Below are positions 781 to 59,725 of a stretch of 64,000 nucleotides of DNA, piece after piece. A program made the translations under genes and the position numbers. The stretch lies in the NCBI GenBank assembly GCA_964016885.1, contig OZ024741.1, forward strand, positions 30,504,001 to 30,568,000. The letters run 5' to 3'. Under the pieces are notes generated by a model that worked only from the letters and a program-made list of their open reading frames with translations, did not search any database and was not told the origin of the DNA. This DNA comes from Eledone cirrhosa. Taxonomy: Eukaryota. Numbering within the stretch: position 1 is the stretch's first letter; each line of letters begins with the position of its first letter.

Positions 781-1578
781 AAAACTTACAGTTTAGTAAA
801 TGAAAGTCAGCTTCGAAATGGAGCTAAAACAAACTGTGTATGCGTTGATTGATTGAAATTCCCGCGTTCCTGTTTCTATGACGTCAATCGTAACCATACC
901 AACATATATGTGTGTGTATGCACCCACATATATGTGTGTATATGTTTTTTTTCAATGTTTCTCTTTTTCACAAACACTTATAAGAGAAGGTAGCAATTTT
1001 TAGGGGAGGTGATGAAGGGAGTAGATATAGGAAACGTATATCATATGAGAGAGGAGAAATCATCGATTGTTGAAATAAATCGTTTTTCCGTAATTGTGGC
1101 ATTTTTTATCCAATAAGTTCGCCCATGACGCAAGTTAGAATATTTGTAAACATTCTGCTTATTTATTCATTCAATATTTTTGGAATTGTGTAAATGTATA
1201 AAATTGAAACATACATACAGACACAAAAATCTGCCTTTTATAGATAATGATATATATATATATATTACGACAGATTGTCAATGAAATAGTTTATGGATTT
1301 CGACATCTGCCCTACGCAGTTATTACTATATATATATATATATATATATATATATATATATATATATATTATTATTATACTTGGGGAGGGTCATATTTGT
1401 GTAATATTGCCAGAATTAATAACAGAACACACTCACTGTTTAGTTGGTTTTCGCTTTTCGCTTCTGTGTCTTTTATATCGGTAATCTATTTTATTCGGTC
1501 CTCAATGTTGCCATTGACTGACCAACGGTCAAAAATAATACAGATTCAATATAGACACAAACACATATATATAGTTTA

Positions 1579-1620
1579 TCAAAGTTCTTTCGTTGTACAT
1601 CTGCAACATCGTCAGTGGTG
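1579..1620 (-). ncRNA. Minimal type I hammerhead ribozyme motif (family B)
   Basis: ca CUGACGA uGUUGca-gaug-uaCAAC GAAA g-aa-c UU ug; stem I short. Confidence 0.6.
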
Positions 1621-1899
1621 CTATTGTTTCCTCCCGTTACATTGTATGTCTACGCCATCTTTATTTAGTCTGTTTATATATTTATTTATTTATTTGTTTG
1701 TTTGTTTATTTTATTTTGTCTTCTTTGCGCATGCGTTTGCGTGTGTGTATAGTGTTTTGTTTGATGTGTGTTCGTGATTGGGTGACTGTGTATTGGTTAA
1801 TGTATTCTATGTTTACTAGTGCGTGTTTATATGTGTTTGTTGTTATTGTGCTTGTGTATGTATTTATTTATTTATTTATTTATCTATTTATTTATTTAT

Positions 1900-2663
1900 T
1901 TATACTTCTCTTAGGTCAGTGTTGTTTGTTTGGGTGTTGTTGTTATTCCATTCATCCTTTCTGTTTAGTCTTGGCCTTCTAAGTTCTATTTCACTGGCCT
2001 CTCTGATTTGCCTATCTGCTGGGTCATTTCTATGTTTAGATATTATTCTAATTTCTATGTTGTCTATGTTACCGTCGTGTTGTTGTCTAGCATGTTCGTA
2101 TAGTACTGACCCGGTTTTTCGTCCTTTTAGTCCCCCCCCCCAGTGTTGGTCTATCCTTTCACCTATGCTACGAGCTGTCTCGCCTATGTATGTTGTTGTC
2201 ATGTTTCTGTAAGTACCTTCTGTACATCTTATGCTATAGACTACGTTTCTAGTTTTACAGTTTATCCGGGGGTTTACCTTACATATGATACATTTCCTAT
2301 TAGTACAGTGGGTTTTTTCTTAAAAGGGTTGGTTTTGCTGATCAGGGATTTTATGGTGGTTCCTGGCTTTTCTACCGCCTTAATCTTTAAGTGGGTCTTT
2401 CTCAGGGACTTTCTACACTGGTTAGCTAATTTCCCTCCAGGGGTAGCATCCACAAACATGACACTCTGGTATCTCTGGTTGTCGTACCATGAGGTGGCTT
2501 TCCCTATCTTATGTCTAGCCCTATCTAAGCTATTCCATGATTTGCTCCTGTATAATGGGCAAATTCCTTTCATGTCCAGTTCTATGAAGGTCTTATACTT
2601 CTCCATGGCTCCTTCGTATACTCTGACTCTGTCTCTTTGGTTGTAGCCAGAGAACTGCATGCG
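1900..2663 (-). pseudogene. Mirror copy of the PLE GIY-YIG fragment (frameshifted)
   Basis: ORFs 2274-2699 and 1900-2202 (YIGETARSIGERIDQH) match 2899-3402. Confidence 0.85.
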
Positions 2664-2898
2664 GTTGATGAAGTGTTGGATGTGTCGGATGTGTCGCATG
2701 CAGTTCTCTGGCTACAACCAAAGAGACAGAGTCAGAGTATACGAAGGAGCCATGGAGAAGAATAAGACCCTCATAGAACTGCACATGAAAGGAATTTGAC
2801 CATTATACAGGAGCAAATCATGGAATAGCTTAGATAGGGCTAGACATAAGATAGGAAAAGCCATCTCATGGTACGACAACAAGAGATACCAGAGTGTC

Positions 2899-3402
2899 AT
2901 GTTTGTGGACGCTACCCCTGGAGGGAAATTAGCTAACCAGTGTAGAAAGGCCCAGAGAAAGACCCACGTAAAGGTTAAGGTGGTAGAAAAGCCAGGAACC
3001 ACTATAAAATCCTTGATCAGCAAAACCTACCCTTTTAAGAAAACCCACTGTACTAATAGGAAATGTATCATATGTAAGGTAAACCCCCGGATAAACTGTA
3101 AAACTAGAAAAGTAGTATATAGCATAAGATGTACAGAGGGTACTTGCAGAAACATGACAACAACATACATAGGCGAGACAGCTCGTAGCATAGGTGAAAG
3201 GATAGACCAATACTGGGGGGAACTAAAAGGACGAAAAAACGGGTCAGTACTATACGAACATGCTAGACAACAAAACGACGGTAACATAGACAACATAGAA
3301 ATTAGAATAATATCTAAACATAGAAATGACCCAGCAGATAGGCAAATCAGAGAGGTCAGTGAAATAGAACTTAGAAGGCCAAGACTAAACAGAAAGAATT
3401 AA
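2899..3402 (+). pseudogene. PLE C-terminal GIY-YIG endonuclease fragment
   Basis: CIICK...NCKTRKVVYSIRC...YIGETARSIGERI...H...RQIRE...LN; 5'-truncated, no RT core. Confidence 0.85.
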
Positions 3403-3732
3403 TGGAATAACAACAACACCCAAACAAACAACACTGACCTAAGAGAAGTATAAATAAATAAATAAATAAATAGATAAATAAATAAATAAATACATACAGA
3501 AGCACAATAACAACAAACACATATAAACACACACTAGTAAACATAGAATATATTAACCAATACACAGTCACCCAATCACGAACAAACATCAAACAAAACA
3601 CTATACACACACGCAAACGCATGCGCAAGGAAGACAAAATAAAATAAACAAACAAACAAATAAATAAATAAATATATAAACAGACTAAATAAAGATGGCG
3701 TAGACATACAATGTAACGGGAGGAAACAATAG

Positions 3733-57002: not shown

Positions 57003-57108
57003 ATATATATATATATATATTTATATATATATATATATATATATATATATATATATATATATATATATATATATATATATATATATATATATATATATAT
57101 ATATATAT

Positions 57109-58845
57109 ATTAATTCAAAATATATAAATAGAACTTCTTGTGATCAAGTATATTTTATTATACATATTTGAGATCTACTTAGCTAACTTCAGCAGTACGT
57201 CCTCATCAGATAAAATAAGATGATGCATGACATACCCTGACAGAGTAGATGGTTAAGATCCAGTCATGGTAGTGAGTAAGATATGACAAAACTCAATATT
57301 TATATACCTTAAGATTGAGCCATGAAAAGACTTACATATAATACAGAGGATGCGTGTGAGAAAGCTTAAAAATAGATAACACCAATTTACATAACTATTA
57401 GAGATTCAAATAATTTAATTTATTGAAGAAAAAGGAACGAAAAAAGAAAGACAGAGAGAAAACCGATGAGAGGATAATATAGCTAGTAGAAATATAGAGA
57501 GCAAAAGAGAATTGATCAAGGAAAGAGAGACAAAGAGGAATAATTTGTATAGTGTAAAACATAGGCAGGGATGAATTATATATATCTATACAGAACTATA
57601 CATTTGGGCATAGCTTTTCGAAAGAGTAAACTCGAAACTTTGAATTTTTGAATTATCTAGAAGTATTCATCAATCTAAATCATAAATATAACTGGGTGTA
57701 ATTATATGAATGTTAATTTCCAGTCCTTAGTTAATTATTTATATATACTATCCAAACGTATCCGGTTGACCGTTAACTTTCAAATCATTTAAGGTAGTTC
57801 AGAGTAAAGAATTAATCAAAGTGTATAATATTTCAGGCTATAAAAGTTTATAAATAACTGTAATAATATAAAAGTATACTATCCTATTTAATTCATAAAA
57901 TCATATTTTATGATATCATATTTAAACTATTTGCAAACATGAGAAAGAAGACATAATATTTTCGTCCTCACGAAGGTCATTCTTATTAAATGTTATATTA
58001 CATTTAATTATTTATATTATATTGAAAATAATTCACATTATATAATTTATAAAATAATTAAATAGGATAGTATACTTTTATATTATTACAGATATTTATA
58101 AACTTTTAGAGCATGAAATATTATACACTTTGATTAATTCATTACTCTGAACTACCTTAAATGATTTGAAAGTTAACGGTCAACCGGATACGTTTGGATA
58201 GTATATATAAATAATTAACTAAGGACTGGAAATTAACATTCATATAATTACACCCAGTTATATTTATGATTTAGATTGATGAATACTTCTAGATAATTCA
58301 AAAATTCAAAGAATCGAGTTTACTCTTTCGCAAAGCTATGCCCAAATGTATAGTTCTGTATAGATATATATAATTCATCCCTGCCTATGTTTTACACTAT
58401 AAAAATTATTCCTCTTTGTCTCTCTTTCCTTGATCAATTCTCTTTTGCACTCTATATTTCTACTAGCTATATTATCCTCTCATCGGTTTTCTCTCTGTCT
58501 TTCTTTTTTCGTTCCTTTTTCTTCAATAAATTAAATTATTTGAATCTCTAATAGTTATGTAAATTGCTGTTATGTATTTTTAAGCTTTCTCACACGCATC
58601 CTCTGTATTATATGTAAGTTTTTTTCATGGCTCAATCTTAAGGTATATAAATATTGAGTTTTGTCATATCTTACTCACTACCATGACTGGATCTTAACCA
58701 TCTACTATGTCAGTGTATGTCATGCATCATCTTATTTTATCTGATGAGGACTTACTGCTGAAGTTAGCTCAGTAGCTCTCAAATATGTATAATAAAATAT
58801 ACTTGATCACAAGAAGTTCTATTTTTGTTAATATTTTGAATTAAT
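57109..58845. mobile_element. 1.7-kb fold-back element
   Basis: Arms 57109-57893 and 58056-58845; (TA)n flanks; degenerate HHR tattttat CTGATGA...aaa tatgta TA ataaaata (58733-58799). Confidence 0.9.
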
Positions 58846-59047
58846 ATATACATATATATATATATACATATACATATATATATATATATATATATATATA
58901 TATATATATATATATATATATATATATATATATATATATATATATATATATATATATATTTATATATATATATATATATATGTGTGTATATGTATTTATA
59001 TATATATATATATATATATATATATATATATATATATATATATATAT

Positions 59048-59490
59048 GTAGAAGTTATATTAAATTTGTTGGGATACAACAAGCAAATATTTTTATAACT
59101 GATATAAAGCACTCAACAAAATTTTTGGAGTAAATATACAATATATTAACAAATGGAAACTATATTTATAAAACCATATTTATTTCATTATACATATTTC
59201 AAGGACACCAAAGCAAATTATGGTACGCTTTCATCACATAAAATATAATATAGATCAGTTTTATAAACAAATATTGACATACCCTTAAAAGAATGCGACC
59301 ATGTCTGTTGGAAGCTCCCGGATGGTAGCTTTCTTTTAAGGGTATGTCAATATTTGTTTATAAAACTGATCTATATTATATTTTATCTAATGAAACCGCA
59401 CCACAATTTGCTTTAGTGTCTTTGTAATATGTATAATGAAATAAATATGGTTTTATAAATATAGTTTCCCTTTGTTAATATATTGTATAT
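59048..59490. mobile_element. Fold-back element with tail
   Basis: Tail 59048-59133; arms 59134-59302 and 59322-59490; decayed HHR in each arm. Confidence 0.88.
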
Positions 59491-59525
59491 ATATATATAT
59501 ATATATATATATATATATATATATA

Positions 59526-59725
59526 TAACGGAGGAAATGTGGTAAGGAACCAGATGGACCATAACGCACCAAAGTACTCAATACTTAGGGTAGTAGAGTG
59601 GGTAATAGGAACCAGTAAGACCCCGACGGCTGAGCTCAAGTCGTTTCGACGGCTAATTCTGGACTAGTCCAGAATTAGCCGTCGAAACGGCTTGAGGTCA
59701 GCCGTCGGGGTCTTACTGGTTCCTA
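59526..59725. mobile_element. Family A mini fold-back
   Basis: Tail 59526-59605; spacerless palindrome 59606-59725 centred on ggact|agtcc. Confidence 0.9.

What the first reader, a model, noticed from the sequence alone, without database searches (positions are those of the whole stretch)
1371..59725. Window-wide architecture: unrelated families all form asymmetric fold-back palindromes embedded in (TA)n
Seen: at least 11 insertions share the layout (TA)n - arm - spacer - inverted arm - [35-140 bp tail on one side only] - (TA)n. They start at 1371, 5566, 17927, 19702, 24151, 28556, 29821, 42981, 55388, 59048 and 59526; 57109 has no tail, and 19702 has TA on one side only. Arm length varies freely within a family (family A ~60 to ~415 bp), while the outer ends are fixed. 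Two carry GIY-YIG coding remnants, and most carry an HHR or part of one near the outer end. Established: PLEs can have inverted pLTRs at truncated 5' ends, and some clades target microsatellites. Inference: fold-back is the main integration outcome in this genome, producing TIR-like elements by a retrotransposition route.
Basis: partly seen in the sequence, partly recalled or inferred. Interest (0 to 1): 0.8.

Follow-up and report, generated by a model that had tools for sequence, protein, structure and literature searches.

The report
Mirror-image Penelope retrotransposon insertions
The palindromes are real: each is a pair of shortened copies of a Penelope-like retrotransposon's end, joined head to head inside a TA repeat, a known insertion form that is very common in this genome and likely arises when the element is copied from two fixed start points during one insertion.

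Summary
Confirmed, and largely a known form. All 12 named sites have inverted arms (78-97% identical) and fall into 8 families. Seven run, in other genomic copies, into Penelope-like (PLE) RT/GIY-YIG coding sequence: four Hydra-type, two Neptune-type, one Neptune/Nematis-type. The eighth is a ~440-bp tandem repeat with no ORF link found. The 'spacer' is the longer arm's own sequence. Each unit is two 5'-truncated 3' ends joined head to head, one with the tail and one without (147 of 153 pairs; 31 of 32 in 800 kb of unselected DNA). The two arms share variants, so they likely come from one template. About half of insertions are paired (32 pairs, 32 solo ends), so 'main outcome' is only partly met. 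Inverted pLTR plus tail and (TA)n targeting are published. Not found in my searches: the scale (~55 per Mb), tails of 33-129 bp, the near-strict tail/no-tail pairing, and fixed-length MITE mimics (356 bp). The scan noted similar mini-palindromes in a shark genome. No read bridged this window's own junctions.

The parts
1370..4030 (+). Family B pair: tail-less arm 1370-2663, tail-bearing arm 2681-4030 (tail 3987-4030); GIY-YIG remnant in both arms; Neptune/Nematis-type linker
5568..5764 (+). Family A short pair; 77-bp tail at the right; junction in hammerhead stem II
17929..18118 (-). Family A short pair; tail at the left
18177..19633 (-).
19702..22196 (-). Family C pair (Hydra-type): tail-bearing arm 19702-20524, longer tail-less arm to 22196 with an EN remnant; right end has lost ~12 bp and its TA
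22526..24133 (-).
24151..24511 (-). Family D pair (Neptune-type); 18-bp hairpin stem at the junction
28556..28885 (-). Family E pair: ~440-bp tandem non-coding family, ~60-bp tail, no ORF link or hammerhead found
29821..30081 (+). Family F pair (Neptune-linked, minimal hammerhead); tail at the right; shortened form of the 356-bp fixed palindrome
42983..44211 (-). Family A long pair (Hydra-type): tail-bearing arm 42983-43475, longer tail-less arm 43479-44211; U3-A8 hammerhead in each arm
55388..56998 (-). Family D pair: long tail-bearing arm with GIY-YIG 56436-56831, short tail-less arm 56855-56998
57111..58843 (.). Family G pair (Hydra-type), tail-less at both ends (1 of 153 pairs of this kind)
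59048..59485 (-). Family H pair (Hydra-type), ~88-bp tail at the left
59528..59723 (-). Family A short pair; tail at the left
30241..30449 (-). Two unpaired family A tail ends (30241-30332, 30359-30449), each closed by (TA)n
35016..35214 (+). Unpaired family F-like end
36343..37165 (-). Family E, two direct tandem units beside a 5'-truncated GIY-YIG (36045-36342)
40459..41124 (-). Unpaired family B-like tail-less end with a hammerhead core

Best explanation
Each palindrome is two 5'-truncated 3' ends of a Penelope-like retrotransposon joined head to head in a (TA)n tract, one arm with the family's tail and one without, and is likely the product of a single insertion primed twice. Shown: PLE identity for 7 of 8 families, two fixed outer ends per family, near-strict pairing of one end of each kind, variable inner ends, and variants shared by the two arms. 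Inferred: the GIY-YIG endonuclease nicks both strands of (TA)n; one nick primes reverse transcription at the outer site (giving the tail) and the other at an inner site 33-129 nt along, which lies at a TA-like word in all 7 families examined; both cDNAs are copied from one template, stop at variable points or at template hairpins, and their 3' ends are joined, sometimes after a short self-primed fold-back. Stops at template hairpins would explain the fixed-length MITE mimics (family A ~196 bp in hammerhead stem II; family F 356 bp at an 8-bp self-complementary word).
For: 147 of 153 facing pairs have one tail-bearing and one tail-less end; 55 of 56 pairs not selected by their own family's search; 31 of 32 in the 800-kb blocks, where about half would be expected from independent ends. 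Coding links and clade motifs. Arms are closer to each other than to the median other copy in 75 of 92 pairs; minor letters shared by both arms: A 129 vs 34.6 expected, H 57 vs 8.9, D 40 vs 7.9, F 43 vs 18.6, G 10 vs 1.1, B 7 vs 2.4. Either arm may be longer: tail-less 13, tail-bearing 6, within 15 bp 19, of 38. Junction hairpin stem of 10 bp or more in 11 of 55 asymmetric junctions (4 of 39 without F) vs 0.9% in control windows. In vitro, a PLE protein cuts and extends both strands and starts at two RNA sites that bound the tail (PMC11167929).
Against: Microhomology is not enriched at asymmetric junctions (3 of 48 with 3 bp or more vs 5.8% simulated), and 32 of 48 have extra bases, most not explained. 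Shared variants could also come from later gene conversion between arms; I could not separate the two. Half of the unselected pairs are near-symmetric, which two independent truncations would not give without hairpin stops or fold-back. Family E has no coding link. No read or contig bridged the window's own junctions at 43475 or 20524. The outer start site's RNA context was not seen, because no tandem junction turned up except in E.
Confidence: 0.62

Rival explanations
1. Single-cDNA self-priming: one cDNA folds back and copies itself, the endonuclease then resolves the hairpin at the inner TA-like site (removing the tail from one arm), and later deletions through the centre make the arms unequal. 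Still a PLE product.
For: Arms share one template; 19 of 38 pairs are near-symmetric; junction hairpins are enriched. Self-priming is proposed in PMC3846280 and endonuclease resolution of the tail in PMC8557442.
Against: It predicts the tail-bearing arm to be at least as long; the tail-less arm is longer in 13 of 38 and by up to kilobases in pairs with arms 97-98.5% alike (L151 828 vs 3874). That needs many one-sided deletions.
Confidence: 0.28
2. Some short palindromes (family F 356 bp) have become self-copying units, moved whole by PLE proteins or by a DNA transposase.
For: 21 copies share an identical junction and length.
Against: Those 21 were picked by the query. The 2 near-full copies in unselected DNA have other centres. 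No arm-specific fixed variant was seen; at column 76 both arms agree in 20 of 21 loci, with two alleles, so at least two origins. Parent copies run past the centre into a Neptune-type ORF. Short A copies differ at their centres.
Confidence: 0.12
3. TIR DNA transposons (MITE or foldback type) with a TA target and a DDE transposase partner.
For: TIR-like look, TA flanks, one fixed-length family.
Against: One-sided tails, variable inner ends, solo 5'-truncated ends, RT/GIY-YIG inside the arms and hammerheads. I ran no dedicated DDE search.
Confidence: 0.03
4. Sequencing or assembly fold-back chimeras at (TA)n.
For: The window's own junctions were not bridged by any independent read.
Against: Arms differ by 1-10%, outer ends are family-specific across many contigs, and contigs of independent public runs show short family A joints at 43102-43115 to 44152-44160 (X3 and X4 are one sample).
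Confidence: 0.03

Closest known systems
Canonical PLE insertion with inverted pLTR and tail (Arkhipova et al. 2013, PMC3846280; Craig et al. 2021, PMC8557442, Fig. 2; Goubert et al. 2022, PMC8969392)
   Same: Inverted 5'-truncated copy joined at the 5' end, tail on one end only, palindromes at the junction.
   Different: Published tails are 30-40 bp; here 33-129 bp. Most units here lack the partial tandem and are bare two-arm palindromes. Density is about 55 per Mb across many families.
Hydra clade PLEs (Craig et al. 2021, section read)
   Same: C-terminal EN with CxCx5C linker, CxxC before E, CxH after N, DKT, hammerheads, (TA)n targets: families A, C, G, H.
   Different: Described from a small number of families, mostly cnidarian; here about 2,000-4,300 search candidates per family. 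RWK motif not seen in the broken copies; no tree built.
Neptune and Nematis clade PLEs
   Same: CX2-5CxxC linker and two cysteines inside GIY-YIG in families D, F and B; (TA)n bias is linked to this linker in PMC8557442.
   Different: Clade call rests on motifs and on 37-49% tblastn identity to the window's RT-EN at 52972 (D, F), not on a tree.
Poseidon PAc in vitro (Frangieh et al. 2024, PMC11167929)
   Same: Both strands cut and extended; two RT start sites bound the tail; AT-rich targets; starts are not at the hammerhead cut.
   Different: That work reports start sites not homologous to the cut DNA; here the inner site has a short TA-like word. In the parts I read it gives no genome count of which ends pair.
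MITEs and foldback DNA transposons; palindromic Harbinger of Xenopus (PMC5625713)
   Same: Short, self-folding, TA-flanked elements.
   Different: Here they derive from retrotransposon ends, carry a one-sided tail and have no transposase link found.

Membership tests
EN+ Penelope-like elements | RT plus GIY-YIG endonuclease in the element | tested here: met
   A, G, H, D, F link to RT+EN; B and C to EN. Pfam RVT_1/GIY-YIG hits for 52972 and 56436; B's EN had no Pfam hit. E not linked.
EN+ Penelope-like elements | 5' truncation with fixed 3' ends | tested here: met
   Fixed outer ends, variable inner ends.
EN+ Penelope-like elements | Inverted 5'-truncated copy and one-sided tail | tested here: met
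   147 of 153 pairs.
EN+ Penelope-like elements | Hammerhead motif in the terminal repeat | tested here: met
   Descriptor hits in A, F, G, H; variant in D; cores only in B, C; none in E; none by Rfam. Cleavage not testable.
EN+ Penelope-like elements | Partial tandem forming direct pLTRs | tested here: inconclusive
   Direct tandems seen in E; no full-length tandem recovered for the coding families.
Hydra clade | CxCX5C linker, CxxC..E and CxH motifs, DKT | tested here: met
   A, G: all four; H: DKT, CxCx5C, and CxxC/CxH in an EN piece in L126 that may be another insertion; C: CxCx5C, CxxC, CxH.
Hydra clade | RWK motif | tested here: inconclusive
   Not found in the broken copies scanned.
Hydra clade | RT phylogeny places it in the clade | not tested
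   No named reference set at hand.
Neptune/Nematis | CX2-5CxxC linker and cysteines between GIY and YIG | tested here: met
   D, F, B.
Naiad | N-terminal EN, no hammerhead | tested here: not met
   EN is C-terminal in the 7 linked families; E (no hammerhead, no ORF) is undecided.
TIR DNA transposon / MITE | Symmetric fixed TIRs at both termini | tested here: not met
   One-sided tail; arms of 39 to over 3,800 bp.
TIR DNA transposon / MITE | DDE transposase partner | not tested
   No dedicated search; none noticed among ORFs printed.
Non-LTR retrozyme (family E) | Tandem non-coding monomers with a hammerhead | tested here: inconclusive
   Tandem ~440-bp monomers, but no hammerhead by my descriptor.

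The most novel reading that the evidence does not exclude
Penelope-like elements have filled this genome with over 100,000 single-template palindromes whose strict tail/no-tail pairing is the genomic record of two-site priming. They are its chief non-microsatellite source of near-perfect double-stranded RNA, hence of ADAR editing substrates, and many 'MITE/TIR' families called in such genomes are their by-products.
Probability: 0.3. Interest if true: 0.7.

Novelty: new member of a known kind. Interest (0 to 1): 0.4.

Why it matters
How PLEs make their inverted ends is called open in PMC8557442 and PMC11167929. This genome offers on the order of 160,000 natural events (44 distinct strict cases in 800 kb, extrapolated; blocks held 0-8 each and were picked at round coordinates), enough to test priming models by counting. 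The elements look like MITEs and can mislead repeat libraries. Arms of TA-abutting inverted repeats cover 4.6% of the sample and give 113 of the 166 non-microsatellite hits in a dsRNA-potential test modelled on PMC5625713. That paper reports high dsRNA potential in an octopus without repeat annotation, and heavy editing of a lizard Penelope. The host here is not established: the named protein relatives are mostly bivalve, and 'cephalopod-like' is my recalled impression. No RNA was examined.

Tried and rejected
Rfam scan: no hammerhead, one weak tRNA-like hit. First label 'Poseidon' for A, C, G, H dropped after the motif check pointed to Hydra. Idea that the two arms come from different templates: rejected; the 59048 right arm simply has private changes (best other hits 93-95%), the 19702 right arm's best hit is its own left arm, and arms share variants. 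Microhomology joining: no enrichment. Genome-wide count of palindromes centred on (TA)n: swamped by microsatellites, 223 of 1,773 tracts vs 153 in mismatched controls, output cut, no conclusion. Read support for the window's own junctions: none bridged; the runs hold at most 0.38 of the words and may be another individual or species; runs X1 and X2 had small shares. Second search for a coding parent of family E returned only more monomers, without loci. Literature searches for the exact combination found nothing closer: (0 papers); the library lacks most subscription journals, so Evgen'ev and Arkhipova 2005 and Arkhipova 2006 were not read. No supplements were read; those of PMC8557442 list families by species and may include relatives of these.
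Full report
1. The observation. Self-alignment of the window finds inverted arms at all 11 named starts and at 57109, with 78-97% identity, (TA)n flanks and a one-sided tail as described (sequence read). The sites belong to eight families: A (5566, 17927, 42981, 59526), B (1371), C (19702), D (24151, 55388), E (28556), F (29821), G (57109), H (59048). 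Two further sites of the same layout lie at 18177-19633 and 22526-24133. The window is part of a 3.0-Gb assembly.

2. What the families are. Other genomic copies of A, read inward from the tail, run into GIY-YIG and RT coding sequence on the opposite strand, so the tail is the element's 3' end. The same holds for G and H, C and D, and F, one copy of which continues into an RT-EN 46% identical to the window's ORF at 52972. B carries its EN in the window, without a Pfam hit. A, C, G and H show the CxCx5C, CxxC..E, CxH and (A, G, H) DKT motifs given for the Hydra clade; D, F and B show the CX2-5CxxC linker of Neptune/Nematis. These are motif calls; no tree was built. E is a ~440-bp tandem repeat with no ORF link in 16 loci, apart from a GIY-YIG beside the window copy. 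Rfam finds no hammerhead. A descriptor finds a full type I motif with the U3-A8 core in both arms of 42981 (5 hits in the window vs 0.5 in shuffles; the other 3 are a tandem repeat at 37287-38542), a core variant described in PMC4209133. F, G and H have type I motifs, D a variant, B and C cores only, E none.

3. Anatomy. The 'spacer' is the longer arm's own sequence: at 42981 the tail-bearing arm covers family positions 1-492 and the inverted arm 78-804. Each family has two fixed outer ends, one with the tail and one 33-129 bp further in (A 77, B 44 here and 12-14 more in other copies, C 129, D 33, E ~60, F 61, G 97, H 88). Across the window, 800 kb of unselected DNA (16 blocks of 50 kb on 10 contigs, picked at round coordinates) and the fetched loci, 153 facing pairs were found for 7 families (E left out for low complexity): 147 have one end of each kind, 5 have two tails, 1 has none. 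97 of the 153 came from loci fetched by their own family's query; of the other 56, 55 are mixed, and of the 32 in the blocks, 31. 290 of 306 paired ends and 35 of 38 solo ends abut (TA)n, against 12.4% of random positions. The inner start site lies at a TA-like word in all 7 families.

4. How common. In the blocks there are 32 pairs and 32 solo ends, so about half of the insertions are paired. A family-blind scan gave 45 rows (44 distinct) of the strict layout in 800 kb, 0-8 per block; 20 rows match the window's families and 25 belong to others, most with the same two start points. That scan recovered only 6 strict cases in the window itself, so it undercounts. Extrapolation gives roughly 160,000 per genome.

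5. Mechanism tests. One template: arms are closer to each other than to the median other copy in 75 of 92 pairs, and share minor letters 2-9 times more than expected; later conversion between arms cannot be excluded. Arm lengths: among 38 unselected adjacent pairs the tail-less arm is longer in 13, the tail-bearing in 6, and 19 are within 15 bp. Junctions: no excess microhomology (3 of 48), extra bases in 32 of 48, and a hairpin stem of 10 bp or more in 11 of 55, or 4 of 39 without F, against 0.9%. Hot spots: 14 of 21 unselected A pairs end at positions 132-141, in hammerhead stem II, with differing centres. In F, 21 query-selected copies share one junction at an 8-bp self-complementary word and one length, 356 bp; both arms agree at a two-allele column in 20 of 21 loci, and parents run past that point. 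I read this as two primings on one template followed by end-joining, with fold-back at template hairpins in some events. Single-strand self-priming with later deletion remains a serious rival.

6. Artefact check. Diverged arms and family-specific ends on many contigs argue against chimeras. Contigs from independent public runs (X3 and X4, one sample) show many short family A joints, and one such joint appears in 3 raw reads of X6 and X7. The window's own junctions were not bridged, so that check is open.

7. Comparison with print. PMC8557442 (passages and section 11) describes the inverted 5'-truncated copy, the 30-40-bp tail and (TA)n targeting by Naiad, Hydra and Neptune. PMC3846280 (passages and discussion) describes the same anatomy and proposes self-priming. 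PMC11167929 (parts 1-2 of 4) shows two start sites and extension of both strands in vitro. PMC8969392 (passages) lists inverted pLTRs as a PLE trait. PMC4209133 (passages) notes opposite-strand hammerhead pairs 100-700 bp apart in Schistosoma. PMC5625713 (passages) and PMC13282606 (passages) bear on the dsRNA and annotation points; the latter does not use the word palindrome. The retrozyme preprint 10.64898/2026.07.22.740005 was seen as abstract only. Searches found no paper that counts this pairing genome-wide or reports tails over 40 bp; most subscription journals are outside the library.

8. Possible consequence. An ungapped version of the dsRNA-potential test gave 331 hits in 5,000 draws: 165 microsatellite, 113 in arms of TA-abutting inverted repeats, 53 other; such arms cover 4.6% of the sample, a figure that includes some chance pairings of separate insertions. 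The number is not directly comparable with the published 0.0044 for an octopus. The host is not established and no RNA was examined.

9. Verdict. What is added is scale, long tails, an abundant set of Hydra-type families, a countable tail/no-tail rule and MITE mimics. Interest 0.4.

Noticed in passing
window 55179-55319 and 59745-59885: A 141-bp piece of an old repeat (other copies 69-74% alike over the full length) stands as a 96% identical inverted pair on both sides of the TA cluster 55322-59741: it looks like flank DNA copied across a (TA)n break, not a PLE end. Unexplained.
   Followed up: partly
window 30537-30656: Palindrome centred on a (TA)n tract; the left arm is an inverted copy of the right flank, with no other copy in the sequences held. 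A genome-wide count was swamped by microsatellites.
   Followed up: partly
window 22194-22274: 81-bp near-perfect palindrome (96%) abutting the shortened end of the family C insertion; high summed depth in public contigs suggests a repeat.
   Followed up: partly
window 37287-38542: Three tandem copies, ~590 bp apart, each with a U3-A8 type I hammerhead: retrozyme-like array.
   Followed up: no
window 55322-59741: Four PLE pairs of four families (D, G, H, A) stacked in one TA tract.
   Followed up: yes
window 52136-54453 (+): Near-complete Neptune-type PLE ORF in two frames; best named relatives are bivalve proteins at 52-59%.
   Followed up: partly
window 11716-17093 (-); 45875-48848 (-); 60315-63651 (+): LINE with a 1150-aa APE-RT-zf ORF and a 642-aa upstream ORF, seemingly intact, and two broken relatives.
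   Followed up: no
window 49293-49906; also 6175-6371, 8959-9124, 23504-23689, 27044-27192, 34833-34925: A short interspersed family, with inverted neighbours at 49293-49906 that do not abut TA.
   Followed up: no
window 5390-5460 (-): Weak tRNA-like hit, 30.2 bits, perhaps a SINE head.
   Followed up: no
window 40140-40175: Hammerhead-like core on the + strand outside the listed sites.
   Followed up: no
blocks L086-L090 and L096-L100: Two of 16 blocks are almost free of inverted repeats (0 and 1 rows), so the palindromes are unevenly spread.
   Followed up: no
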